Source: an uncultured beta proteobacterium
GTDB taxonomy: Bacteria; Pseudomonadota; Gammaproteobacteria; Burkholderiales; Eutrophovitaceae
Assembly (NCBI GenBank): GCA_963792855.1
Contig: CAWBXZ010000001.1
Span: 260,472-324,471 of the forward strand
Reading direction: 5' to 3'
DNA: 64,000 bases
How positions within the stretch are numbered: the first letter of the stretch is position 1; each line of letters begins with the position of its first letter. The notes below the pieces were generated by a model that was not told the DNA's origin, searched no databases, and was given only the letters and a program-made list of their open reading frames with translations. Made by a program: the position numbers and the translations under genes. Below are positions 13,947 to 47,931 of this stretch, piece by piece.

Positions 13947-14121
13947 CAAGGAGAATCGGTATTACGGGTGTGCGGCGCACGTACATGGCCTGCTTCGCAC
14001 GCGTCGTCATGCGCTGTGTTCGTGCCGGCTGACACGGCACGGTTACCGGGATGGGTGTGGATGCCTGCATGCGCGGACCACAAGCCCTGATCAGAATCGT
14101 CAATGAAAGGAACAACACGAA

Positions 14122-14814
14122 ATGACTGCAGGAAAAACCATGCTCATCACTGGCGCGTCTACGGGTATCGGCGCAGCCACTGCAAGGATGGCGGCCGATG
14201 CGGGTTACCGCGTCGCACTCGCGGCGCGTTCGCTGGACAAACTGGAATCGATCGTGGCCGAACTCGGTGGCGCGGAAAAGGCGATTGCCATTCAGTGTGA
14301 CGTGACCTCATACGCAGAGCAACAGGCGATGGTCGCGAAAACCCTGAAGGCGTTCGGACGGATCGACGTCGCTTTTGCCAATGCCGGCGTCGGGGCGACC
14401 GCATCGGGCACGTTGAAAGGCGACCCGGACAATTGGCGCGACATGATCATGACGAATCTTTACGGGGTCACGCTGACCGTCAAGGTTTGCATGCCGGAGA
14501 TTCTGAAGAATCGCGGCCACTTGCTGCTGACCGGGTCGCGAGCCGGACGCGGCCCATTGAAGGGCTCCGTTTACGGTGCCACCAAGTGGGCGGTGACAGG
14601 CTACGGCTACAACCTGCGCGAAGAACTCGCGGGCACCGGAGCCCGTGTCACCCTCATCGAGCCCGGCATGGTCGACACACCGTTCTTCGATTCGCCCAAG
14701 CCGGACGTGTTGAAGGGCGAGGACGTGGCGCGAGCCGTGATGTATGCGATCTCGCAGCCTGACCATGTGGACGTGTCCGAGTTGCTGGTACTGCCGGTCA
14801 GCAAGCACGGCTAG
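14122..14814 (+). CDS. short-chain dehydrogenase/reductase (SDR)
   Basis: MLITGASTGIGAATA is the TGxxxGxG motif; NAGV and Y..TK are present. 230 aa. Confidence 0.9.
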   Translation: MTAGKTMLITGASTGIGAATARMAADAGYRVALAARSLDKLESIVAELGGAEKAIAIQCDVTSYAEQQAMVAKTLKAFGRIDVAFANAGVGATASGTLKGDPDNWRDMIMTNLYGVTLTVKVCMPEILKNRGHLLLTGSRAGRGPLKGSVYGATKWAVTGYGYNLREELAGTGARVTLIEPGMVDTPFFDSPKPDVLKGEDVARAVMYAISQPDHVDVSELLVLPVSKHG

Positions 14815-14833
14815 TCCAGGCGTGTCAGTACAC

Positions 14834-16459
14834 ATGACCGGCGGTGAGGCCATCGCACGCTCCCTTCTGGTGCACGGTGTCGACACCGTGTTCGCGATTC
14901 CCGGCGTGCAGACCTACGAGTTGTTTGACGCCTTCGCGAGGCTGGAGGGTCGCATCAACGTTATCGGACCGCGTCACGAGCAGACGACCGCCTACATGGC
15001 ATTTGGTTACGCCAGATCCACCGGCAGGCCGGGCGTCTATTCGGTCGTGCCGGGTCCCGGCGTGCTCAACACGACGGCGGCGCTTTGCTCTGCCTATGGC
15101 GCGAGCACTCCGGTACTGTGCGTCACCGGCGAAGTGCCGTCGGGATTCATTGGTTCCGGAATGGGGCATCTTCACGAGTTGCCCGACCAACTCGCGACCT
15201 TGCGCACGCTCACCAAATGGGCAGCGCGTATCGATCATCCGGAACAGGCACCGGATCTGGTTGCGCAGGCGTTCCGGCAAATGCTGACGGGTCGGCCACG
15301 CCCGGTTGCTCTGGAAATGCCGTGGGACGTGTTCGGCGAGCGGGCTCCGGTGGAATTGATGCCCGCACCAGCGAACACTCCTCAGGTTGAACCGGATACG
15401 GATGTCGTCGAACGGGCGGCGAAACTGATCGCTGATGCGCGCAACCCGATGATCATGGTCGGCAGCGGCGCGGCGCACGCCGCAGCTGAGGTGCGCGCAC
15501 TCGCCGAGCGGTTGCAGGCACCGGTCGTGTCGTTTCGTGGCGGGCGCGGGATCGTCAGCGACGAGCATCATCTCGGGTTTACCTGCGCGGCCGGTTTCAG
15601 GTGCTGGCCCCGGACCGACGTGCTGATCGGGATCGGTTCGCGGCTGGAACTCCAGTGGTTCCGCTGGCCCGACCAACCGGACGGCCTGAAGATCGTCAAC
15701 ATCGACATCGACCCGGAACAAGGCGAGCGGCTGAAGGCTGACATCGCCATTGTCGGGGATGCGCGCGCGTGCGCGGCTGAACTCGACAAGGCACTTGGCC
15801 GTGCCGCTGTGGGGCGTCGTTCCCGCCAGCCTGAATTTCAGACGATCAAGGACGAAACGCTGGCGGCCGCACAGCAGGTGCAGCCGCATATCGACTATCT
15901 GCGAGCGATCAGGGACGTGTTGCCTCGCGATGGATTCCTGGTGGAGGAGATCTGCCAGGCCGGGTTCACTTCATATTTCGGTTTTCCCGTTTATCAACCG
16001 CGCACGTTTGTCAGTTGCGGCCACCAGGGCACGCTCGGGTTCGGTTTTCCGACGGCACTGGGGGTAAAGATCGGTAATCCCGACAAGGCCGTGGTATCGA
16101 TAACGGGTGATGGCGGTTTCATGTTCGGCGTGCAGGATCTGGCAACAGCGGCACAGTACGGCATCAACGTGGTAACGGTGCTGTTCAACAACAACGCGTA
16201 TGGAAACGTACTGCGTGACCAGAAGAACCTGTTCGATGGGCGGCTGATTGGCTCGGAACTGCGTAACCCGGATTTCGTCAGGCTGGCGGAGAGTTTCGGC
16301 GTCAACGCCAGCCGCGTGTCCGCGCCAGGTGGCCTCAAGCGCGAGTTCGAACGCGCACTCGCACTCGATGCGCCGGCGTTGATAGAAGTGTGCATCGAAC
16401 GCGGCTCCGAAGTATCGCCGTGGCCCTTCTTGATGCCGCCGCCAACGGTGCGGCAATGA
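14834..16459 (+). CDS. thiamine-diphosphate-dependent enzyme (acetolactate-synthase-like family)
   Basis: Start moved to ATG 14834 (MTGGEAIARSLLVHGVDTVFAIPG). RHEQ..AYMA.GYAR.TG and the TPP motif GDGGFMF......NNNAYGN are present. Confidence 0.85.
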   Translation: MTGGEAIARSLLVHGVDTVFAIPGVQTYELFDAFARLEGRINVIGPRHEQTTAYMAFGYARSTGRPGVYSVVPGPGVLNTTAALCSAYGASTPVLCVTGEVPSGFIGSGMGHLHELPDQLATLRTLTKWAARIDHPEQAPDLVAQAFRQMLTGRPRPVALEMPWDVFGERAPVELMPAPANTPQVEPDTDVVERAAKLIADARNPMIMVGSGAAHAAAEVRALAERLQAPVVSFRGGRGIVSDEHHLGFTCAAGFRCWPRTDVLIGIGSRLELQWFRWPDQPDGLKIVNIDIDPEQGERLKADIAIVGDARACAAELDKALGRAAVGRRSRQPEFQTIKDETLAAAQQVQPHIDYLRAIRDVLPRDGFLVEEICQAGFTSYFGFPVYQPRTFVSCGHQGTLGFGFPTALGVKIGNPDKAVVSITGDGGFMFGVQDLATAAQYGINVVTVLFNNNAYGNVLRDQKNLFDGRLIGSELRNPDFVRLAESFGVNASRVSAPGGLKREFERALALDAPALIEVCIERGSEVSPWPFLMPPPTVRQ

Positions 16460-35315: not shown

Positions 35316-36419
35316 ATGGCGAGACGCCAGTTCGATCACGAAATTATGGTTTTGCAAGGTGGCGGCGCGCTAGGCGCTTATCACGCGGGGGTATATGAGG
35401 GCCTGGCGGAAGCCGGCCATACGCCAACCTGGGTAGTGGGCGTTTCCATTGGCGCCATCACGTCGGCGCTGATCGCCGGCAACCCGCCCGAGAAGAGAGT
35501 TGAGCGGCTGCGGGTCTTCTGGGAGCGTGTGTCGGGCTACGCGCCATTCACCTGGCCAACCTGGTTTGATGCGATGCGCCCGGCGCTCAATGCAATGAGC
35601 GCGGGGAGCGTGGCGGCATTCGGAAGCCCGGGGTTCTTCACGCCGCGTGTGCCCGCACCGTTCTTCGCGCCGGATGGCAGCGCTGGTGCAACGAGCTTTT
35701 ACGACACGACGCCGCTCAGGGACACCCTCGAGGAACTGGTCGACTTCGAGCTGCTCAACAACGGAGATATGCGCACCTCGCTCGGCGCGGTTAACGTGCG
35801 CACCGGTGAATCCGTTTATTTCGACAGCCGGAATATGCGCATCGGACCTGAGCACGTGATGGCCAGTGGCTCGCTGCCGCCAGGGTTCCCGGCGGTGGAA
35901 ATCGACGGCGAGTTCTACTGGGATGGCGGCATCGTATCCAACACGCCGCTCAACTACGTAGTTGACCAGAAGCCGCTGACCACCGCACTCATCCTGCAAG
36001 TGGACCTGTTCAAGGCAATCGGTGAGTTGCCTCGCAATCTCGACGAGGTGCTCGAGCGGCACAAGGACATCCAGTACTCCAGCAAGCAGCGCTTCAACAC
36101 CGAGCGCGTCAGGGAAATCGGCGAACTGCGCGTGGCGCTGAAGCATCTGCTCGCCAAACTGCCGGCCAACCTGAAGTCCGGCGCCGAAGCGAAGAAGCTC
36201 GCCACACTGTGCGACGACCGGCAGTGGACGATTGCGCGCCTGGTCAACGAGCGCCTGGAGCACGTCTCGCGTACCAAGGACTACGAGTTCTCGCGCGCCA
36301 CGATGGTGGAGCACTGGGCGGCCGGCCTTGATGATATTCGCCGCTCCGTCGCCGCGCGCGACTGGATCGAGCCGACGCTTGCAGGCGAGGGCGTCGAGTT
36401 CTACGAACTGCCCGCGTGA
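35316..36419 (+). CDS. patatin-like phospholipase family protein
   Basis: [14 protein letters not shown] is the oxyanion G-G-G-x-x-G motif and GVSIGA is the GxSxG nucleophile. The long C-terminal extension is typical of the patatin+DUF3734 architecture. Confidence 0.85.
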
Positions 36420-36450
36420 CCAACTCAGTTTTAACTCGAGAGAAGAAAAC

Positions 36451-37206
36451 ATGACCGAAGACGAAGTCCGGGAACGGGCTTTTGCGATGCCGCTCACCAG
36501 CCCGGCGTACCCGCCCGGGCCGTATCGCTTCTACAACCGCGAGTTCTTCATCATCAACTACCGTACCGATCCGGATGCATTGAGGGCGGTGATCCCCGCG
36601 CCGCTGGAGTTTACCGAACCGGTCGTCAAGTACGAATTCATCCGCATGCCCGACTCGACCGGATTCGGCGACTACACCGAAAGCGGGCAGGTTATCCCGG
36701 TCAGTTTCCGCGGCGAACGCGGCAACTATGTGCACTCGATGTACCTGGACTGCGATCCGCCGATTGCCGGTGGGCGCGAACTATGGGGTTTTCCGAAGAA
36801 GCTGGCTTCGCCGGTCCTCAAAGTCGAGAAAGACACGCTCGGCGGCGTGCTGCGGTTCGGCCCGGTGCCGGTCGCGGTGGCCACGATGGGCTACAAGCAT
36901 CGGGCGCTGGACAACGAAAAGATCCGTGAGTCTCTGGAGGCGCCGGGCTATCTGCTGAAAATTATCCCGCACGTCGATGGCACGCCGCGTATCTGCGAAA
37001 TCGTGCGTTATGTCTGCGGCGACGTAGTTGTCCACGGTGCCTGGAGCGGACCGGCGGCCCTTGAATTGTTCCATCACGCGCTCGCCCCGGTCGCTGCCTT
37101 GCCGGTGCTGGAAGTGCTTTCCGCATCGCACATCGTGTCGGACCTGACGCTCAATCTGGGCACCGTCGTCCATGATTACCTCGCACCTGAAAGGAAGAAG
37201 CAATGA
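36451..37206 (+). CDS. adc: acetoacetate decarboxylase
   Basis: [29 protein letters not shown] (the Lys-Lys pair of the Schiff-base site), ATMGYKH.ALD and [16 protein letters not shown] closely parallel the remembered clostridial Adc. Confidence 0.9.
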
Positions 37207-37985
37207 AGCTCGAGGGCAAGACTGCCATCATCACCGGCGCCGCCAGCGGCATTGGCAAAAGCATTGCGTTGTACTTCGCCCGCGAGGGCGCCAACGTCGC
37301 CATCGCCGACCTCAAGCTTGATGCTGCAGAAGCGGCAGCGAAGGAAATCCGCGCTGCCAAAGGCGTCGCGATGGGCGTGGCGATGGACGTGAGCGACGAG
37401 AAGGCCGTCAACGACGGGGTCGCGGCAGTCGTCAACGAATTCGGCGGTGTCGACATCCTGGTCAGCAATGCCGGCATCCAGATCGTGCATCCGATCGAAG
37501 CGTTTCCGTTCGCCGACTGGAAGAAGATGCTCGCCATCCACCTCGACGGCGCCTTTCTGACGACCAAGGCCTGTCTGCCGCACATGTACAAGTCGGGCCG
37601 TGGCGGCAGCATCATTTACATGGGTTCGGTGCACTCGAAGGAGGCTTCGCTGCTGAAGTCCGCCTATGTCACGGCAAAGCACGGGCTGATCGGGCTCGCC
37701 AAGGTGGTGGCCAAGGAGGGAGCCGAGCACGGCGTGCGCGCCAATGTGATCTGCCCCGGTTTCGTGCGCACGCCGCTCGTCGACAAGCAGATCCCCGAGC
37801 AGGCAAAGGAACTCGGCATTTCCGAACAGGAAGTTATCAAGAATGTCATGCTCAAGGAGACGGTAGACGGTGAATTCACCACGGTCGAGGACGTCGCCGA
37901 GGCGACGCTGTTCTGCGCTGCGTTCCCGTCCAATGCCATGACCGGCCAGTCCTTTGTTGTCAGCCACGGCTGGTTCATGCAGTAG
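37203..37985 (+). CDS. bdhA: 3-hydroxybutyrate dehydrogenase (SDR)
   Basis: ATGA overlap with adc. [28 protein letters not shown]...W, S.HS...S..KSAYV.AKHG and ICPG.V.TPLV are the classic BdhA pattern. Confidence 0.9.
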
Positions 37986-38043
37986 CAGGACGCGGGCGAT
38001 AGTATCCGGGGTTTATTCGAAAAATTTGTCTGGAGAAAGAAAT

Positions 38044-39741
38044 ATGAAAGTCATCATCGTAGGTGGCGTAGCCGGTGGCGCATCGTGCGCGGCGCGCTTG
38101 CGCAGGCTGGACGAGAATGCCGAGATACTGATGGTCGAGCGCGGGCCGTACGTCTCGTACGCGAATTGCGGGCTGCCTTACCATGTCGGCGGTGTGATCG
38201 AACAGGAATCGAGTCTGCTGGTGGCGGACGAAAACACATTCCGTTCGCAATTCGCCATTGATGTAAGGACGAACTGCGAATGCGTCAATATTTCGCCAGA
38301 CAAGAAGACCGTCGACCTGCGCGATGTAAAGACCGGCAAGGTCACGACCGAGTCCTACGACAAGCTGGTGCTCTCGCCCGGTGCGGAATCGATCCGCCCA
38401 CCACTGCCCGGCATTGATCTGCCGGGCATCTTTCCGGTGCGCACTGTGCCCGACGCGAGAACGATTCGGCAGTGGATCGAGAAGGGTTCGGCGTTCCTGT
38501 CGGGCATGCATCGCTACTCGGGTTTCCAGACGGTGCGGCCGAAGACACGTGCCGTCGTCATTGGCGGCGGTTTCATCGGCCTGGAAACAGCGGAGAACCT
38601 CATCCACCGCGGCTTCGACGTGACGCTGGTCGAAATGGGTGATCAGATTCTGGGGCCGATCGACCCCGAGATGGCGCGCATCGCCGAAGGCTATCTTGAA
38701 CGTCACGGTCTACGGCTGGCGCTCAATGACGGTGTATCCGGCTTCGAACAGGGCGAGAACAACACGCTGAAGGTGCTCACGAAATCGGGCAAGGTGCATC
38801 CGGCCGACATCGTAATCCTCGCCATCGGTGTGCGTCCGGATACCGCGCTGGCGAAAAAAGCCGGCCTGGAGATCGGCAAACGCGGCGGCATCCGCGTCGA
38901 TGATCACATGCGCACCAGCAAGCCGGACATCTTCGCGGTCGGTGATGTGGTCGAGGTCAAGGACAGCGTGACCGGCGAATGGGGTCTGGTCGCGTTGGCC
39001 GGCCCGGCCAACCGGCAGGGACGCATCGCAGCGGACGTCATTGCCGGGCGCGACTCGCGCTTCCGCGGCACCCAGGGCACGGCGATCATCGGCTTCTTTG
39101 GCGGTGTCGCGGCCTGGACCGGCGTCAGCGAGAAAGCGCTCAAGCGCAACGGTGACACCGACTACGAAAAAATCTACCTGTACCCGAACTCGCACGCCGG
39201 CTATTACCCGGGCGCGAAGCCGATCGCGATGAAGGTGCTGTTCCGCAAATCGAACGGCAAACTGCTCGGCGCGCAGGCACTGGGTGAGGACATGGTGGAC
39301 AAGCGCGTCAGCGCGCTGGCCATGGCGCTGCAGATGGGCGCGACGATCTATGATCTGGAGGAAGCCGAGCTGTGTTACGCACCGCAATTCGGCAGCGCGA
39401 AGGACCCGGTGAATTTCGCGGGGATGATCGCAGCGGATGTCCTGCGCGGTGATATGCCACTCAGCCACTGGGACAGTGAGGAGCAGGGCTTCCTGCTCGA
39501 TGTGCGCTCGCCGGTGGAACTGGCGGTGGAGAGCGAGCCGAACGCGGTCAATATTCCGCTCGGAGAATTGCGCGCGCGGCTCAGCGAACTGCCGCGCGAC
39601 AAGGAGATTCTGGTCATCTGCCGTTCCGGGCAGCGTGCCTACTACGCGACACGGATGCTGTTGCAAAAAGGCTTCAAGGCCAGGACGCTGTCCGGCGGCA
39701 TGTTGTCGCGCACGCACGCGACGACGTTCTGGACGAGTTGA
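38044..39741 (+). CDS. CoA-disulfide/persulfide-reductase-type FAD oxidoreductase with C-terminal rhodanese domain
   Basis: MKVIIVGGVAGGASCAARLRR is the FAD motif and SYANCGLPY carries the redox Cys. The C-terminal rhodanese has the CRSGQRA loop. 565 aa. Confidence 0.85.
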   Translation: MKVIIVGGVAGGASCAARLRRLDENAEILMVERGPYVSYANCGLPYHVGGVIEQESSLLVADENTFRSQFAIDVRTNCECVNISPDKKTVDLRDVKTGKVTTESYDKLVLSPGAESIRPPLPGIDLPGIFPVRTVPDARTIRQWIEKGSAFLSGMHRYSGFQTVRPKTRAVVIGGGFIGLETAENLIHRGFDVTLVEMGDQILGPIDPEMARIAEGYLERHGLRLALNDGVSGFEQGENNTLKVLTKSGKVHPADIVILAIGVRPDTALAKKAGLEIGKRGGIRVDDHMRTSKPDIFAVGDVVEVKDSVTGEWGLVALAGPANRQGRIAADVIAGRDSRFRGTQGTAIIGFFGGVAAWTGVSEKALKRNGDTDYEKIYLYPNSHAGYYPGAKPIAMKVLFRKSNGKLLGAQALGEDMVDKRVSALAMALQMGATIYDLEEAELCYAPQFGSAKDPVNFAGMIAADVLRGDMPLSHWDSEEQGFLLDVRSPVELAVESEPNAVNIPLGELRARLSELPRDKEILVICRSGQRAYYATRMLLQKGFKARTLSGGMLSRTHATTFWTS

Positions 39742-40095
39742 TCCGGTCCGTGGTCCGATCATGATCAGCGTATTGGAGTCTCATGCGGAGTGCGCCAAGT
39801 TCCGATCGGTTGAACTCCACCGTTGCACCGCACCCGGCCCGAACCGGGTCGGACCGCGGCGTGTCATGCCGACCGCATATACGGAAGGCTTGTCGGTCCA
39901 AGAAGGCTTGAGAGATGCTGATGCGCTGGGTCAGTGCATATGAGCAGGCTATGCAGTGCAGTGCTCGGCCTGGTCGATGTTGGCGACAGTGCGGTGCGCG
40001 AGTTTCTGCACGGCACCTGCTTGTGACGACAGAGGGAAACCTGCCGCGAAGCAGAGGAAGGCCGGTGAGGTTGCTGCGAGGGAGTGGGACGGATC

Positions 40096-40638
40096 ATGGC
40101 GAAGCCTGACGAGAAGAAAAGGACGTGGAAGGAAAAGATTCTTCACGAGATGGTGGAGTACTGGATAGCTGTCATCTATCTGGCACTCGTCTTTGCCGCT
40201 TTCACGCAGTACCGGAGAATCGTTCTGGCTGCCTATGACATCACGTACGAGAATTACTGGGTGGCCCTGATCAAGGCGTTGATTCTTGCAAAGGTCATCT
40301 CACTCGGGATCGTGATCCGCCTCGGCCGACGCCTTGATCACAAGCCCTTGATATTTCCCACCGTTTACAAAGCCGCCGTGTTCACCCTCTTCGTCATCGC
40401 TTTTACCGTTGTCGAGCATTTGGTCATCGGCCTTTGGAGTGGAAAGGGGCTCACGGGCGGCCTCCTTGAACTGTATGGCGAGCAGATCCATGAATTGCTC
40501 GCGGGGACTCTGGTCATCTTCGTCGCTTTGATACCCTTCTTCGGTGTCAAGGAACTGGGGCGGGTGCTGGGGGAGGAAAGAATAAGGGCGCTGTTCTTCC
40601 GCGGCAGATCCGCGGATTCATCGCCGCCGGAGCGCTGA
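40096..40638 (+). CDS. membrane protein, unknown function
   Basis: About 180 aa with four hydrophobic segments; ATG 40096. Confidence 0.45.
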   Translation: MAKPDEKKRTWKEKILHEMVEYWIAVIYLALVFAAFTQYRRIVLAAYDITYENYWVALIKALILAKVISLGIVIRLGRRLDHKPLIFPTVYKAAVFTLFVIAFTVVEHLVIGLWSGKGLTGGLLELYGEQIHELLAGTLVIFVALIPFFGVKELGRVLGEERIRALFFRGRSADSSPPER

Positions 40639-42113: not shown

Positions 42114-42135
42114 CACCTTGATCGCGATCAAGGTG
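42114..42135. promoter_or_regulatory. perfect FNR/CRP-family box inside a 22-bp perfect palindrome
   Basis: CACCTTGATCGCGATCAAGGTG. The core TTGAT-CGCG-ATCAA (42118-42131) equals the FNR consensus TTGAT-N4-ATCAA. It lies about 220 bp upstream of the GRE start codon. Confidence 0.7.
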
Positions 42136-42350: not shown

Positions 42351-44823
42351 ATGAAGACCGCAACGAAATCTGCAACAAGAAAAACTGCAACAAAAAAAAC
42401 CGCAAGTGATCTTAGGGGTAGTTCTACAGCACGGGTTACGGCGGATGACGAGCGCATTGATACGCTGAAGGAACTGCTCAGGAGCACTCCGCAGGATCTC
42501 GACTTCGAGCGAGTCAAGATCATGCGCGAGATTTACGAAGAATCCGCAGGCGATAATTCGCTCCTCCAACGAGCCAAGTTCCTGGCCGCCGTCCTGGAGC
42601 GCAAGAAACTGTATATCGACGACAACCTCTTCGTCGGTGCCATGGCAGGCAAACAAAACGCGCTCTACACCTATCCCGAATGGCAGGTGGACTGGATGAT
42701 CGAGGAAAAGACGGTCGAAAACTCGCCGACGCCGGAAGACAAGGCGGCGAACCAGTGGGCGATCGACTACTGGGGCCCGCGTGGGATGAAACTCCGCACC
42801 GAAGCCATCTTTGAGAAGCGCTTTGGATACGACCCCAAAATCAGTTACGACGCCGGACTCATTGCCGCGTTCCATGACTGGCCGGCCGGTGGTGGCAACC
42901 TGAACTACCCGCGGGTGTACCGCGAGGGCCTCGCCAGCATGATCAAGGAGGTGGAGGAGCGACAGATGGCCCTCGAGATGCGGATGCCGAACATGACCAA
43001 GTTCTACTTCTATGAGTCATCCCTCATCGTGATGCGGGCGGCGATTCGCTATGCCCATCGCTATGCCGAGTTGGCTCGGGAGATGGCCGCCAAGGAAAAG
43101 GACAAGACCCGCAAGGCGGAGCTGATCTCCCTCGCGGAAACCTGCGAGTGGGTTCCCGAGAATCCTGCCCGTAACCTGCGGGAAGCCATCCAGAGTCACT
43201 TCTTCTGTCACATCATTGCAGAACTTGAGCAGATCGGCTGCGGGTACTCCGAGGCCTACCTGGGTCAGAACCTCGAGCCTTTTTACCAGGCCGACAAGGC
43301 GGCCGGACTCATTACCTACGAAGACGCAGTCTTCATGTTCAAGAACCTCACCATCAAGTTGAACGAGATCAACTACTACTACGGTGAGAAGATCGCTCTG
43401 CAGAACTCCGCCGACCTGGGACAGAGTATTACCCTTGCGGGATTTTCCGAGGACGGTGGGGATGCCACGGCGGAAATGGACTACGTGATTCTTGATTCCT
43501 CGCTTTATCTCTCACTGCCCCAGCCGCCGCTCTCGGTTGCGCTTACTCCGCAAACTCCGGGCAAGTTCATCGAGAAAGTGCTCGATGTGATTGGGACCGG
43601 CATCGGTCTCCCGCAATTCCTCAACGCGGACGTTATGATGAAGCGGGCTCTGCACCTCTGGGGCCACAACGACCGGGTCGGCGATCTCCCATTGGAGAAA
43701 GCGCGACGCACCTGTGTCGGGGCCTGCGTGGGAAGCTATATCCCGTATGAGACCGGTCACCCGGTGGAGGGGCAGCCCAACCTCGGCAAGATCATCGAGT
43801 TGACCATGAACGATGGCTTCGATCCGCGAACCCAAAAGCAGGTCGGTCCCAAGACCGGCGATCCCGTTAATTTCAAGGACTTCGAGGAACTGTACGCGGC
43901 GTTCGAGAAGCAGCTTCAATTCTGCGAAGACACACTGCGTCACGCGGCCTGGATTTCGAACATCCTGCAGGCGGATTTCCTCCCCTGTAGCTTGGCGCTC
44001 GATCCTGACCGGAGGATGCATCGAGACCGGCACCGAGACCTGGGCCGGCGGAGCCAACTACTACACGGTCGCCCAGATCTCCGTCGGCCAGGTGGATGCC
44101 GCCAACTGCCTAATGGCGGTGAAGGACTTGGTGTTCGACAAGAAGAAGCTGACCATGGCCGAACTGAAGGCGGCTCTGGCGGCCAACTTCGAAGGCAAAT
44201 ACGAGAAGGTCAGGAAGATGTGTTACGAGGACGCGCCGAAGCACGGAAACGACATCCCGGAGGTGAACCAAATACTCCTCAGGGTGAACAACAGTATCCT
44301 GACGGCCTTCAACAACGTCGATGGCGGCGGCAACTACATCACCAAAGACACCAAGACCTCGCTCGACCAATACACCAAGAGTGTTCACAACCTGATGGGC
44401 CTGGTGACCGGCGCGTTACCCAACGGCAAGAAGGCCGGCGTGGCCCTCACCGATGGCAGCCTGTCGGCGATGCCGGGCACGGATGTCAACGGACCGACCG
44501 CGCTGGTGATGTCTGCGGCCAAAGGCCAGGATGCCGTGAAGTGGTGTGCCACGCACATGAACATGAAACTCCCGCCGGACCAACTCAAGTCGCGCAAGGG
44601 TCGGGAAAACGTGATGAACCTGGTCAGGACCTTGTTCACCAACGGGGGCTATCACATCCAGTTCAATGTGCTGGATACCGAGAAGCTGAGAGACGCGCAG
44701 AAGCACCCTGAGAACTACCGTGACCTCGTGGTCCGAGTCGCCGGTTTCAGCGCGTTCTTCACCAAGCTGCATGTGGGTGTTCAGAACGAGATCATCGAGC
44801 GGACCTTGCAGAAATTCGGGTGA
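42351..44823 (+). pseudogene. glycyl-radical enzyme (PFL2/PflD-like family), reading frame broken by one extra base in a C4 run (true pseudogene or assembly error)
   Basis: Frame 0 (42351...) is GRE-like up to ..AAWISNILQADFLP. Frame +1 continues VAWRSILTGGCIETGTETWAGGANYY... and ends with the glycyl-radical motif DLVVRVAGFSAFFTKL. The junction is at CCCC 43982-43985. The 786-aa track ORF ends in out-of-frame Arg/Gly-rich sequence. Confidence 0.9.
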
Positions 44824-44920
44824 CGAACAACGGAGCTGGTACGGCGTGGCGTTTCGTCACGCCGTACCGGAAATTCCTCGAAGAACAGCAAACAACCCCA
44901 GTACAACGGGATATCAGATC

Positions 44921-46078
44921 ATGAGTAAGCACACGAAACGCATCGCAATCAATGTGGGTGCCGGCTACGTCCCGGGCATGAATGCCGTGGTAACGGGAGC
45001 CGCGCTCGCAGCGGTTAAACTGGGGTGGGAAATCGTCGGCATACGCGACGGTTTCGACGGGCTCCTCCATGGAGACCGTTACCCGAACGGCGGCGTGGTA
45101 ACGCTCTCGCCGCAATTCATCGCGGATATGGACCCGGCGGCGAGTGGCGCGCTCGGACAGTCGCCGTGGGTAGATCCTTTTCATGTCCGGCGAGTCGACG
45201 ATGACGAGTATGTCCAGGAAGTCGATGTCTCGGACGAGATCCTGGACAAGCTGAAATCCGAGGGAGTCGATGCACTGATCTCGGTCGTTGGCGGGCGCGG
45301 ACTCAGCATTCTTTACAAACTCCATCGAAAAGGCCTGAATGCCGTGTGCATCCCGCGCTCGCTCGAGAATGACATTGCCAGCACGACGGTGTCATTCGGC
45401 TTCAACAGCGCGTTGACCTTCACGATCGACATGCTGGACCGGAGCCGGCAGGCGGCGCGGGCTTCCCGCCAGATCGCTGTCGTTGAGGTGCTGGGAGCAC
45501 AGTCCGGCTGGCTGGCATTGCAAGCCGGGATCGCGGCCGGCGCCGATGCGATCCTGATTCCTGAAATTCCCAGTGACCTTGATGTGATCGCCGCGCAACT
45601 GAAGGAGAAGATGGACCCCGATCGACCTGCGGCGCTCGTCGTCGTGGCGGAGGGTGTGCGGCTCGTGGGAGGATCGAACAAGGAAGAGAGATCGTCGTCA
45701 TTCAGGGCGTCCTTGTCGCCGCTGGCAACGGGGGGTTCCGGTGAGCACGTCATCGCACGCTCGGGCCGGGCAGCGAATGACGTTGCCAATGGACTGCAGC
45801 GACGGCTTGCCGAGGACACCTATGCGCTCGCGCTGGGGCCATGGGTTCGAGGCGGTACGCCGAGTGCCGTTGACCGGCAGCTCGGCATCGGCTACGGGGC
45901 CGGTGCCGTACAGGCACTCAGTGCCGGCAAAAGCGGTGTGATGGTTGCTTTCCAACCGCCGGACATCGAATCGGTACCGCTTGCGCAGGCGATCAACAAG
46001 GTGCGTACGGTGCCTGCTGATAGCGAGATGATGCAAATCGCCCGATCCATCGGCATCTGCCTGGGAGAAGCGTCATGA
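44921..46078 (+). CDS. phosphofructokinase-fold protein with degenerate catalytic motifs
   Basis: ATG 44921 (MSKHTKRIAINVGAGYVPGMNA). PFK scaffold, but GGDGS reads GGRGL, TIDND reads SLEND and MGR reads LGA. Confidence 0.7.
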   Translation: MSKHTKRIAINVGAGYVPGMNAVVTGAALAAVKLGWEIVGIRDGFDGLLHGDRYPNGGVVTLSPQFIADMDPAASGALGQSPWVDPFHVRRVDDDEYVQEVDVSDEILDKLKSEGVDALISVVGGRGLSILYKLHRKGLNAVCIPRSLENDIASTTVSFGFNSALTFTIDMLDRSRQAARASRQIAVVEVLGAQSGWLALQAGIAAGADAILIPEIPSDLDVIAAQLKEKMDPDRPAALVVVAEGVRLVGGSNKEERSSSFRASLSPLATGGSGEHVIARSGRAANDVANGLQRRLAEDTYALALGPWVRGGTPSAVDRQLGIGYGAGAVQALSAGKSGVMVAFQPPDIESVPLAQAINKVRTVPADSEMMQIARSIGICLGEAS

Positions 46079-47031
46079 GCAGCAATTCAAAAGATGCGAT
46101 CACGGGCACGGTACTGAACATCCAGCGCTACTGCAGCCATGATGGGCCTGGCATTCGCACGACCGTTTTCCTGAAGGGCTGCTCACTGCGTTGCAAGTGG
46201 TGCAGCAATCCGGAAAGCATCTACCCGAAACCTGAGCTTGCCTACGATCGCTCGAAGTGCAGCGGTGCGAAGAAGTGTGGCCTTTGCCTGAAGCCGCCAT
46301 TTCCGGAAGGGGCGTTCTACATCGCCGATGGGGCCGACGACACGATCAACGTCAATTGGGACCTGGCTTCGGAATGCGATAAGGCGCTCACATCCCAATG
46401 CCCGACCGACGCGCTGTACATGTTCGGTGACAGCATGACGGTGGACGAGGTTCTGGAGGAGGTGGAAAAGGACGCCTCTTTCTACAGGAACACCGGAGGC
46501 GGGATGACGCTAAGTGGCGGCGAGTGCCTGTTGCAACCTGATTTCGCCGAGGCACTGCTGAAGGGCGCGCACGAGCGTGGCATCAACACGGCGATCGAAA
46601 CTGCGGGCAACTATCCCTGGCGCTTCATGGAGCAGGTGTTACCCCATGTTGATACCGTGCTTCACGATCTCAAGGTGACTGACCCGGAGCGGCACAAGAA
46701 ATGGACCGCCGTCAAGAACGAAAGGATCATGGCGAACTTCAAGAAAGCCTACGAAACTTTTCCCGATGCGGACTTTATCGCGCGCACGCCGGTGATTCCT
46801 GGCGTTAATGACGACGAGGAACATATCCGGGCGGTGCTTGAGTTCATTCGTCCCCACAAGAATGTGATCGACTATGAGCTGCTGCCGTACATGCGTTTCG
46901 GCATGGGCAAGTACGACCTCTTGGGCGAGCTGTACGAGTTGAAGGACTTTAAACCCCCGACTGAAGAGTCGATGGAGCGGCTGCAGGCGATTATCGATGA
47001 GGCTTTCGGCCGCAATAAGCAAGATAGATGA
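46075..47031 (+). CDS. glycyl-radical enzyme activating protein (radical SAM)
   Basis: ATGA overlap with the upstream gene. GPGIRTTVFLKGCSLRCKWCSNPES is the CxxxCxxC motif. Additional Cys-rich ferredoxin-like insert (CSGAKKCGLC...QCP). Confidence 0.9.
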   Translation: MSSNSKDAITGTVLNIQRYCSHDGPGIRTTVFLKGCSLRCKWCSNPESIYPKPELAYDRSKCSGAKKCGLCLKPPFPEGAFYIADGADDTINVNWDLASECDKALTSQCPTDALYMFGDSMTVDEVLEEVEKDASFYRNTGGGMTLSGGECLLQPDFAEALLKGAHERGINTAIETAGNYPWRFMEQVLPHVDTVLHDLKVTDPERHKKWTAVKNERIMANFKKAYETFPDADFIARTPVIPGVNDDEEHIRAVLEFIRPHKNVIDYELLPYMRFGMGKYDLLGELYELKDFKPPTEESMERLQAIIDEAFGRNKQDR

Positions 47032-47931
47032 CAGAGACCAGCGAACAAGAATCACGCCTCATCGAAACGGGCTGGTTGGCGGAGCATCTGGATAGTCCCA
47101 GTCTCAGGATTCTGGATTGCTCTGTTGTGGTTCGTGATGCGGATGACGGTAGCCGCACCTACCCAGTGGAAGATCTGAATGGGACAGGGCCACATCCCCG
47201 GTAGCGTGTTTGTTGACTTCCTGGCAGATCTTAATGCCAGGCAGCCGATACCGTATAACATGCCACCACTGGATGAATTTGCAGCAACGATGGAATCTAT
47301 CGGAGTCGCTGATGACAACCGGGTTGTGCTCTACGACAATTCGAACCATGCATGGGCGGCCCGTGTCTGGTGGATGTTACGGGTTATCGGTTTCGACAGC
47401 GCGGCCGTGCTAAACGGCGGCTGGCAGAAGTGGAAGGCGGAAGGGCGGCCGGTTTCCGCCGGGGAAACATGTTATCCAGCTGGCAAGCTTACGATCAGGC
47501 ATCGCCCGGGGCTGATGGTAGACAAGCAGTACGTATTGTCATCGCTATCGGACGACAGGATCACGATCATCAATGCTTTGACGGCAGACGAACACAGCGG
47601 CAAGGTGAGCCGGTTTCCGAGAGCCGGCCACATTTCGGGAAGTGTAAACGTTGACTGTGAGACGCTGGTCGACCCGAATCAGCACGTCTTTCTGCCGAAG
47701 GAAGAACTGCGCGCGATTTTCGACTCTGCCAGTGCGCTGAACGGAGACAGTGTCATCACTTATTGCGGCGGAGGCGTTGCTGCGAGCAGCGATGCTTTAG
47801 CGTTAACGTTGCTCGGTATGGATGATGTCGCCGTTTACGATGGCGGATTGATTGAATGGACCGCCGATTCAAGTTTGCCGATGGAAGAGGATCGTCATGG
47901 TCAGAAAACAAGGTCGACCCAGCCTGGTTGA
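47028..47931 (+). pseudogene. tandem-rhodanese sulfurtransferase (SseA/MST-like), frame broken by one extra G (true pseudogene or assembly error)
   Basis: ATG 47028 (ATGA overlap with the activase) gives MTETSEQESRLIETGWLAEHLDSPSLRILDCS...YPVEDLN, then a stop. Frame +1 continues GQGHIPGSVFVDF... to 47931 with the active loop YCGGGVAAS. The junction is at GGG 47181-47183. Confidence 0.8.

What the first reader, a model, noticed from the sequence alone, without database searches (positions are those of the whole stretch)
44921..46078. PFK-fold protein with most catalytic and substrate residues replaced
Compared from memory with E. coli PfkA: TSGGDAPGMNA becomes NVGAGYVPGMNA and GGDGS becomes GGRGL. 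TIDND becomes SLEND, so the catalytic Asp is now Glu. MGR becomes LGA, and GHIQRGG becomes GPWVRGG. The fold and length are kept, but the ATP/Mg and fructose-6-P contacts are largely lost. It is probably not a phosphofructokinase. It may be a kinase of new specificity, a pseudo-kinase, or a structural partner of the GRE or activase, to which it is translationally coupled.
Basis: partly seen in the sequence, partly recalled or inferred. Interest (0 to 1): 0.6.

Follow-up and report, generated by a model that had tools for sequence, protein, structure and literature searches.

The report
Non-kinase PFK-fold partner of GRE activase
This gene encodes a protein with the phosphofructokinase shape whose sugar-kinase residues are replaced in a strongly conserved way, and in many bacteria it sits directly in front of the activating enzyme of an oxygen-sensitive radical enzyme, so it is most likely an undescribed helper of that activation step and not a glycolytic enzyme.

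Summary
ORF 44921-46078 (385 aa) has a full PFK fold: Pfam PFK 203 bits, AlphaFold pLDDT 88.6, TM 0.92 to bacterial ATP-PFKs. It lacks the Mg-binding Asp103, both transition-state arginines (R72W, R171A) and the 6-phosphate ligands (R162Q, R243Y, H249P). The catalytic Asp127 is Glu.

This is not decay. The changes are fixed across a large family (dN/dS about 0.07), and the former active-site loops are its most conserved parts.

The stop codon overlaps the activase start (ATGA). A 98-nt spacer with a strong hairpin separates the gene from the GRE.

In all 33 related loci whose sequence reaches past it, a PFK-like gene lies directly upstream of a radical-SAM activase. This holds even where other genes separate it from the GRE, and where the GREs are only about 30% identical. 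Extra paralogues always precede a ferredoxin-domain protein. Other GRE-activase pairs in the same genomes have none.

The genome also has a normal PPi-PFK elsewhere. Metatranscriptome contigs cover the gene.

Best reading: a remodelled, probably ligand-binding, non-kinase partner of a particular activase clade. The mechanism is inferred, not shown. I found no description in the searched literature. Earlier notes of this scan reached the same reading on relatives.

The parts
44921..46078 (+). PFK-like protein (PFKL), 385 aa: PFK fold with remodelled catalytic cleft. The family-specific insert at residues 252-281 (SLSPLATG...VIxRSG) is the only part predicted with low confidence.
46075..46078 (+). 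ATGA overlap: the PFKL stop TGA overlaps the activase start ATG (translational coupling).
46075..47031 (+). Glycyl-radical-enzyme activase (radical SAM with ferredoxin-like insert), 318 aa. It belongs to a distinct clade, 55-76% identical among PFKL-linked loci.
42351..43985 (+). GRE, N-terminal 545 codons (PFL-like domain, model positions 3-517).
43982..43985 (+). C4 run where the GRE reading frame shifts by +1. Relatives read through in one frame.
43984..44823 (+). GRE, C-terminal part in the +1 frame: Cys loop GGCIETG, glycyl radical motif RVAGFSAFF, true stop at 44821-44823.
44832..44872 (+). 16-bp stem-loop just after the GRE stop, with no U-run (111-nt stretch 44815-44925: -40 kcal/mol, z -3.5). 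Possibly an mRNA 3' stabiliser or attenuator that sets GRE output above that of PFKL and activase.
42118..42131 (.). FNR-type box TTGATCGCGATCAA about 230 nt before the GRE start.
47179..47931 (+). Rhodanese / 3-mercaptopyruvate sulfurtransferase-like gene downstream of the activase.
37954..39741 (+). CoA-disulfide reductase fused to a rhodanese domain. Homologues lie next to the GRE-PFKL-activase unit in 10 related loci.

Best explanation
PFKL is a neofunctionalised member of the PfkA fold that no longer phosphorylates fructose-6-phosphate. It works as a dedicated partner of one clade of GRE activases.

Shown:
- It has the PFK fold.
- The Mg/ATP, transition-state and 6-phosphate residues are replaced by a different, fixed set. 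Basic residues sit at 104 and 124, Glu at 127, and aromatic residues at 12, 175, 243 and 250.
- It is under strong purifying selection.
- It is encoded immediately before the activase, and its stop overlaps the activase start.
- The pairing is kept across GRE subfamilies that are only about 30% identical.
- Duplicated copies pair with another ferredoxin-domain protein (FER).

Inferred:
- PFKL and the activase are made in matched amounts and form a complex, probably through the ferredoxin-like domain that the activase and FER share.
- The remodelled cleft binds a small ligand and does not catalyse phosphoryl transfer.
- The conserved insert (residues 252-281), predicted disordered, is a partner-recognition element.
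- The complex supports or gates reductive SAM cleavage and glycyl-radical installation on the GRE, for example by stabilising the activase, docking an electron donor, or making activation depend on a metabolite.

Which of these last roles applies is not known.
For: Fold: Pfam PFK 1-277/277. AlphaFold2 with a 115-sequence alignment gives pLDDT 88.6 and pTM 0.87. Foldseek gives TM 0.92-0.93 and rmsd 2.2-3.1 A to Bacillus and Lactobacillus ATP-PFKs.

Residues: see the table. Canonical representatives keep GGDG / PKTIDND / MGR / GHLQRGG, and every PFKL lacks them.

Selection: median dN/dS is 0.075 over 146 pairs. Conservation peaks at the old active-site loops: blocks 11-20, 41-50, 121-130, 141-150, 191-200 and 311-330.

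Linkage:
- GRE-PFKL-activase order holds in 27/27 loci that extend far enough.
- Five divergent subfamilies (43-52% identical; L033, L036/37, L038, L039/40, L041) again have PFKL -4 to +81 nt before a radical-SAM activase.
- This holds even with epimerase, MFS, YeiH-like or SDR genes between GRE and PFKL.
- Their GREs are about 30% identical to ours, the activases 55-67%, the PFKLs 42-53%.
- PFKL and activase pairwise distances correlate at r = 0.97.

Specificity: in five genomes, 8 of 10 full-length TIGR02494 activases have PFKL upstream. The 2 without it belong to ordinary GRE-activase pairs and are only 34-35% identical to the linked ones.

Paralogues: 24 extra PFKL copies are each followed directly by FER. 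They form one clade nested within the activase-linked PFKLs (100/98 support), with a partner-type-specific insert.

Not needed for glycolysis: a canonical PPi-PFK lies next to the H+-PPase gene and adk on contig 24.

Expression: metatranscriptome contigs with 0-2 mismatches span the GRE end into PFKL, PFKL itself, and the PFKL/activase junction.
Against: - No physical interaction was tested. Gene order, coupling and co-divergence are what any co-inherited operon shows.
- High conservation of the cleft, with Glu127, Asn128, Asp129, Glu222 and Arg252 kept, also fits a real enzyme of unknown chemistry.
- The activase is an ordinary-looking TIGR02494 member (321 bits). By model score it is closest to the HpsH type of DHPS-dehydratase activase, which to my knowledge is described without a third protein. 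PFKL therefore cannot be part of the core chemistry.
- The window's own protein departs from the family consensus at R72 (W) and at E171 (A).
- The adjacent GRE is frame-broken in this assembly, so function of this particular locus rests on the break being an assembly error.
Confidence: 0.55

Rival explanations
1. PFKL is a true enzyme of the GRE pathway: a kinase or phosphotransferase (or other group-transfer enzyme) with a new substrate and possibly a new donor. Glu127 would act as base, and the new basic residues 104 and 124 would hold an anionic donor without Mg-Asp103.
For: - The old active-site loops are the most conserved parts.
- Glu127, Asn128, Asp129, Glu222 and Arg252 are kept, and position 124 is basic as in PPi-PFKs.
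- GRE substrates can be sugar phosphates (YbiW and PflD, review PMC13450708).
- Transporters and dehydrogenases accompany the clusters.
Against: - No acidic residue replaces Asp103, and Arg171 is Glu, Ala or Gly.
- The same module serves GREs that are only about 30% identical and sit among different accessory enzymes.
- The gene follows the activase, not the GRE or the pathway genes.
- Up to three paralogues occur in one operon, each in front of an Fe-S protein. That is hard to explain for a pathway kinase.
Confidence: 0.2
2. PFKL is mainly an oligomeric scaffold. PFK-type dimer and tetramer contacts between PFKL copies or paralogues would bring the activase and FER-type ferredoxin proteins together into an electron-delivery complex. 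The conserved cleft would be structural or would bind a partner peptide, not a metabolite.
For: - PFKL:Fe-S gene pairing is one to one, and paralogues share an operon.
- The FER-linked clade is nested within the activase-linked PFKLs.
- The insert is partner-type specific.
- L003 and L028 have the order PFKL-activase-FER.
Against: - The window's genome has no FER homologue at all, so the scaffold would have nothing to bridge here.
- The oligomeric state is unknown.
- Arg162 and Arg243, which complete the site across the PfkA dimer interface, are lost.
Confidence: 0.15
3. PFKL is an ordinary ATP- or PPi-dependent phosphofructokinase with unusual residues, placed here by chance or for carbon flux.
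For: Full-length Pfam PFK match. Public sources name relatives '6-phosphofructokinase'.
Against: - All catalytic and most substrate residues are changed.
- It scores below all NCBIfam cut-offs.
- A 1.33 substitutions/site branch separates it from canonical PFKs.
- A canonical PPi-PFK is present elsewhere.
- Context is strictly GRE plus activase.
Confidence: 0.03
4. PFKL is a decaying relic (pseudogene-like) without function.
For: Loss of catalytic residues. The neighbouring GRE is frame-broken in this assembly.
Against: - dN/dS is about 0.07.
- Identity is about 70% across phyla.
- The ORF is intact, and the replaced residues are themselves invariant.
- Transcript contigs cover it.
Confidence: 0.02

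Closest known systems
Group III 'mixed-substrate' bacterial PfkA-family phosphofructokinases (NCBIfam TIGR02483; structures such as 1zxx, 3u39, 4a3s)
   Same: Same fold and length class. Best sequence-model hit (240 bits) and best structural matches (TM 0.92-0.93). Shares the PGxN loop, Asn128/Asp129, Glu222, Arg252 and a basic residue at 124.
   Different: Lacks Asp103, Asp127 (Glu), Arg171, Arg162, Arg243 and His249. Carries new fixed Tyr/Phe12, Arg/Gln104, Trp175, Tyr243 and Trp250, plus a roughly 30-residue insert. Never sits in a glycolytic context. A long branch separates it from the canonical enzymes.
Non-catalytic PFK-fold regulatory units (alpha subunit of plant PPi-PFK; C-terminal half of eukaryotic PFK-1). 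From general knowledge, not tested here.
   Same: Precedent for a PFK fold that lost catalysis and kept its cleft as a ligand-binding regulatory site.
   Different: Those pair with an active PFK paralogue and regulate glycolysis. PFKL pairs with a radical-SAM activase or a ferredoxin-domain protein and has no active PFK partner nearby.
Accessory subunits of multisubunit GREs (HPAD gamma, BSS beta/gamma, MASS beta/gamma/delta; review PMC13450708)
   Same: A third protein encoded in a GRE operon whose role in activation or activity is debated.
   Different: Those are small HiPIP- or rubredoxin-like metal proteins bound to the GRE catalytic subunit. PFKL is 385 aa, has no cluster-binding cysteines, and tracks the activase and not the GRE.
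HpsH-type GRE activases (NF048010, the best model for the neighbouring activase at 368 bits)
   Same: The partner activase is of this general type: radical SAM with two auxiliary [4Fe-4S] motifs.
   Different: The score is below the equivalog cut-off (430). To my knowledge the HpsG/HpsH system is described without a PFK-like gene. PFKL-linked activases form their own conserved clade.

Membership tests
6-phosphofructokinase (PfkA family, ATP- or PPi-dependent) | PFK fold / Pfam PF00365 domain over its full length | tested here: met
   Pfam 202.7 bits, positions 1-277/277. AF2 pLDDT 88.6. Foldseek TM 0.92-0.93 to ATP-PFKs.
6-phosphofructokinase (PfkA family, ATP- or PPi-dependent) | Score above the curated NCBIfam cut-off of any PFK model | tested here: not met
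   Best hits are TIGR02483 at 240 against 430 and NF002872 at 229 against 253 bits. All ten hits fall below their cut-offs.
6-phosphofructokinase (PfkA family, ATP- or PPi-dependent) | Mg2+-binding Asp103 in the GGDG motif | tested here: not met
   The motif is VVGGRGL with no acidic residue. The family has G in 118/121 at position 103.
6-phosphofructokinase (PfkA family, ATP- or PPi-dependent) | Catalytic base Asp127 in T-I-D-N-D | tested here: not met
   The motif is SLEND, with Glu in 108/121 of the family. A carboxylate is kept, so chemistry cannot be excluded.
6-phosphofructokinase (PfkA family, ATP- or PPi-dependent) | Transition-state arginines Arg72 and Arg171 | tested here: not met
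   The window has W72 and A171. The family has R72 in 104/121, but position 171 is E, A, G or S.
6-phosphofructokinase (PfkA family, ATP- or PPi-dependent) | F6P ligands Arg162, Arg243, His249 and Arg252 | tested here: not met
   The window has Q162, Y243 and P249. Only R252 (and E222) is kept.
6-phosphofructokinase (PfkA family, ATP- or PPi-dependent) | F6P 1-phosphotransferase activity | not testable with these tools
   Needs an enzyme assay.
GRE small accessory subunits (HPAD gamma, BSS beta/gamma, MASS delta) | Small Fe-S or rubredoxin-like protein bound to the GRE catalytic subunit | tested here: not met
   PFKL is 385 aa with a PFK fold and only two Cys (C143, C380), so it has no cluster motif. 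It tracks the activase and not the GRE.
Non-catalytic PFK regulatory subunits (plant PFP alpha type) | Pairs with a catalytically competent PFK paralogue | tested here: not met
   No canonical PFK lies in any of the loci. The genome's only canonical PFK is on another contig.
Activase-linked PFK-like family (PFKL; not defined in the literature I could search) | Signature G[AS]G[YF]xPGxN, VG(x)[RKQ]G, P[RK]S[IVL]EN[DE], GW, [YF]P, G[PSA]W[VA]RGG | tested here: met
   The window has GAGYVPGMN, VGGRG, PRSLEND, GW, YA and GPWVRGG.
Activase-linked PFK-like family (PFKL; not defined in the literature I could search) | Encoded directly upstream of a TIGR02494-type radical-SAM activase (or a FER-type ferredoxin-domain protein) | tested here: met
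   The window has the ATGA overlap. All 33 related loci that extend past the PFK-like gene show the same arrangement.

The most novel reading that the evidence does not exclude
PFKL is the founding member of a new class of GRE-activation factor. In this reading it is a ligand-gated PFK-fold subunit that docks on the ferredoxin-like domain of a special activase clade, and its paralogues dock on FER polyferredoxins.

The former ATP/F6P cleft is rebuilt with four aromatic and three acidic residues. It would bind an adenosyl or cationic ligand such as SAM, 5'-deoxyadenosine or the pathway substrate. Radical installation on the GRE would then be licensed only when that ligand and a reductant are present.
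Probability: 0.3. Interest if true: 0.8.

Novelty: new variant of a known kind. Interest (0 to 1): 0.6.

Why it matters
GRE activation is usually described as a two-protein affair, activase plus GRE, supplied by a general reductant. How activases are reduced and controlled in vivo is an open question, and many activases are hard to handle in vitro.

A strongly conserved third protein travels with one activase clade through several phyla and at least two GRE subfamilies. It would be a concrete handle on that question.

It would also be a practical requirement for reconstituting these uncharacterised GREs. It corrects a systematic mis-annotation too: thousands of database entries call these proteins '6-phosphofructokinase', which can create false glycolysis calls in metabolic reconstructions of MAGs.

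Finally, it is a clear case of a central-metabolism fold recruited to radical enzymology.

Tried and rejected
1. First AlphaFold run with a shallow 38-sequence alignment (pLDDT 69.8, pTM 0.56). I superseded it with a 115-sequence alignment.

2. A stand-in for AlphaFold-multimer. In L003 the PFKL and activase genes are in frame, so reading the TAA stop as Q gives one 718-aa chain (P0509).
   - MAFFT placed the half-length PFKL rows over the activase half, or the reverse, in every configuration tried, including duplicated bridge rows.
   - No usable alignment could be made, so I abandoned the test. No interaction evidence came from it.

3. Search for natural PFKL-activase fusions among the 150 best 50%-representatives. 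The long hits were canonical or tandem PFKs, an RNase H fusion, and one GRE-tail/PFKL read-through that is probably an artefact.

4. Apparent exceptions to the adjacency rule. G004:C18 (378 bits) and G371:C40 (368 bits) proved to be canonical PFKs with GGDG, PKTIDND and MGR.

5. ORF184 (40084-40638) as a homologue of the 180-aa protein that precedes the GRE in Bacteroidales. There is no similarity; it is a small membrane protein.

6. FER function. Only the C-terminal 2x[4Fe-4S] domain is recognised by Pfam, NCBIfam and PDB sequences.

7. Literature. Five full-text searches and the 2026 GRE review found no PFK-like GRE partner.

8. Read depth as a measure of relative expression of GRE against PFKL. 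I rejected it because contigs of many relatives pile up on the conserved GRE part.

Full report
**The gene and its neighbours.** On the + strand the region reads as follows:
- a GRE from 42351 to 44823, with a frame break;
- a 98-nt spacer;
- the PFK-like ORF 44921-46078 (P0001, 385 aa);
- a radical-SAM GRE activase at 46075-47031;
- a rhodanese gene at 47179-47931.

The PFK-like stop overlaps the activase start: GCG TCA TGA against ATG AGC.

The GRE is not one ORF in this assembly. Pfam finds PFL-like positions 3-517 in the frame that starts at 42351. It finds the rest, plus the glycine-radical domain (RVAGFSAFF), in the +1 frame ending at 44823. The switch lies at a C4 run, 43982-43985. All relatives read through in one frame. 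Contigs of close relatives in public DNA and RNA runs lack one base there. The break is therefore most likely a homopolymer assembly error or a strain-specific lesion.

A 16-bp hairpin without a U-run follows the GRE stop. An FNR-type box lies about 230 nt before the GRE start.

**Check of the observation.** P0001 matches Pfam PFK over the whole model (202.7 bits) but misses every curated NCBIfam PFK cut-off.

G11, N128, D129, E222 and R252 are kept.

AlphaFold2 with a deep alignment gives a confident model (pLDDT 88.6, pTM 0.87). Only residues 252-279 fall below 50. Foldseek places it on bacterial ATP-PFKs at TM 0.92-0.93, rmsd 2.2-3.1 A and 24-27% identity.

**Remodelled, not decayed.**
- The word-indexed search scored 6196 relatives, and the best 120 clusters are about 70% identical.
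- The exhaustive 50%-representative search shows full-length relatives falling from 63% to about 40% identity. After that come canonical PFKs, which score about 336 bits on Pfam PFK against about 200 for this family.
- Within the family the replacement residues are themselves fixed: G103 in 118/121, R/Q104, R124 in 121/121, E127 in 108/121, and W175, W250 and R252 each in 121/121, with Y/F243 in 117/121.
- Median dN/dS is 0.075, against 0.05 for the activase.
- Conservation is highest in the old active-site loops.
- In a tree the family sits behind a 1.33 substitutions/site branch from canonical PFKs, with 100/100 support.

The genome also has an intact PPi-PFK (GGGDS, PKTVDND, MGRHAG, GHAQLGG) next to an H+-pyrophosphatase gene and adk on another contig.

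**What it travels with.**
- In 28 loci found with P0001 (Bacteroidales, Ignavibacteriota, deltaproteobacterial and Pseudomonadota MAGs), the order GRE-PFKL-activase holds in all 27 that extend far enough.
- Twenty-four additional PFKL paralogues occur in these operons. Each is followed within 24-96 nt by FER, a roughly 380-aa protein of which only the C-terminal 2x[4Fe-4S] domain is recognisable.
- The FER-linked PFKLs form one clade nested within the activase-linked ones, so activase linkage is ancestral.
- Five more divergent PFKL subfamilies (43-52% identical) again lie -4 to +81 nt before a radical-SAM activase. In L036, L038 and L041 an epimerase, transporters or an SDR separate PFKL from the GRE, while the activase stays adjacent.
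- The GREs of those loci are only about 30% identical to the window type and have their Cys loop about 70 residues earlier. Yet the activases are 55-67% and the PFKLs 42-53% identical.
- PFKL and activase distances correlate at r = 0.97.

**Specificity.** In five genomes carrying the system, 8 of 10 full-length TIGR02494 activases have PFKL upstream. The other two belong to ordinary GRE-activase pairs, lack PFKL, and are only 34-35% identical to the linked activases.

The system is rare. It occurs in 2 of 200 other genomes sampled evenly from the order of the Bacteroidales MAG behind L009. It occurs in 0 of 200 other genomes sampled from the window's own order. That fits horizontal spread of the module.

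The window's genome holds a second, frame-broken GRE-PFKL-activase copy on contig 6 and has no FER homologue.

**The insert.** Residues 252-281 are absent from classical PFKs, are predicted with low confidence, and are nevertheless conserved. The sequence reads SLSPLAT...VIx(K/S/R)SGQAA in activase-linked proteins. It differs in one FER-linked type (SLPPxATGEA...P.EKTA) and is half deleted in the other. That is the behaviour expected of a partner-recognition segment, but this is inference.

**Expression.** Sediment metatranscriptome contigs with 0-2 mismatches cover 44630-45133 (GRE end, spacer and PFKL start on one contig), 45738-46028, 45907-46107 (PFKL/activase junction) and 46178-46604. 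DNA carry-over in such libraries cannot be excluded.

**Interpretation.** The evidence excludes an ordinary PFK and a decaying relic. It favours a protein whose function is tied to the activase and not to the GRE's substrate chemistry.

The cleft keeps a carboxylate triad region (E127, D129, often E171). It gains basic residues at 104 and 124 and four aromatic residues. So I expect ligand binding, not phosphoryl transfer. What the ligand is remains open. An adenosyl or cationic ligand such as SAM is attractive because metK closes the operon in four loci, but this is speculation.

A pathway enzyme of new specificity remains the main rival. A pure oligomeric scaffold linking activase and FER is a second rival, weakened here by the absence of FER in this genome.

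**Comparison with what is known.** The closest sequence and structure relatives are group III PfkA enzymes. The closest functional precedents are non-catalytic PFK-fold regulatory units (general knowledge) and the small accessory subunits of HPAD, BSS and MASS (PMC13450708). PFKL fails the defining features of each.

Five full-text searches and that 2026 review gave no description of a PFK-like GRE or activase partner.

Earlier notes of this scan on relatives in other genomes reached the same reading. I treated them as leads and re-derived the linkage independently. I added:
- the contrast between 30%-identical GREs and conserved activases;
- the activase-anchored specificity test;
- the partner-type tree and the insert;
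- the selection estimate and the transcript evidence.

Noticed in passing
window 43982-43985: A single extra C in a C4 run splits the GRE into two frames. Relatives and related public contigs lack the extra base, so it is probably a long-read homopolymer error.
   Followed up: partly
own genome contig C6:2-8732 (outside the window): A second GRE-PFKL-activase cluster (GRE 72-83%, PFKL 61%, activase about 77% identical to the window copy). It has several frame breaks and is followed by SBF-like and SulP-like transporter ORFs, identified by eye only. The same order is seen in L028.
   Followed up: partly
window 35316-37985 and L041:251-2979: The patatin/DUF3734 - acetoacetate decarboxylase-family - SDR trio upstream in the window also lies directly before a different GRE-PFKL-activase cluster (GRE about 30% identical) in a Burkholderiales MAG. 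This suggests a functional link between the trio and these GREs.
   Followed up: no
L009:11614-12801 and 14088-15221; L028:10135-11283; L003:5225-6406: The FER family is about 380 aa: an N-terminal region with no family match, a CxC...CxxCC(C)C cysteine run, and a C-terminal 2x[4Fe-4S] domain. It always follows a PFKL paralogue or the activase. Its function is unknown.
   Followed up: partly
L007, L009, L021, L027 (e.g. L009:15278-16621): A SAM synthetase gene (metK) directly follows the last FER gene of the operon in four Bacteroidales loci.
   Followed up: no
window 44832-44872: A strong 16-bp hairpin sits immediately after the GRE stop, with no U-run. It could set higher GRE output than PFKL and activase output.
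   Followed up: partly
own genome contig C24:20407-21672 (L031:1207-2472, minus strand): A canonical 421-aa PPi-dependent PFK lies between a membrane H+-pyrophosphatase gene and adenylate kinase.
   Followed up: partly
L009:4856-5398 and 20 other Bacteroidota loci: A conserved 180-aa protein with no family match precedes the GRE in Bacteroidota loci. It has no homologue in the window's genome.
   Followed up: partly
L028 GRE residue ~538 against L036/L039/L041 GRE residue ~468: The window-type GRE has its catalytic Cys loop (GCIE) about 70 residues later than the second PFKL-linked GRE subfamily. It also scores only about 440 bits on the Pfam PFL-like model, against 760-780 for ordinary GREs in the same genomes.
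   Followed up: no
L003:6462-7775: Downstream of FER in the deltaproteobacterial locus lies a 437-aa ORF that by eye resembles 2-hydroxyacyl-CoA dehydratase / benzoyl-CoA reductase D-type subunits. I did not check this with any tool.
   Followed up: no
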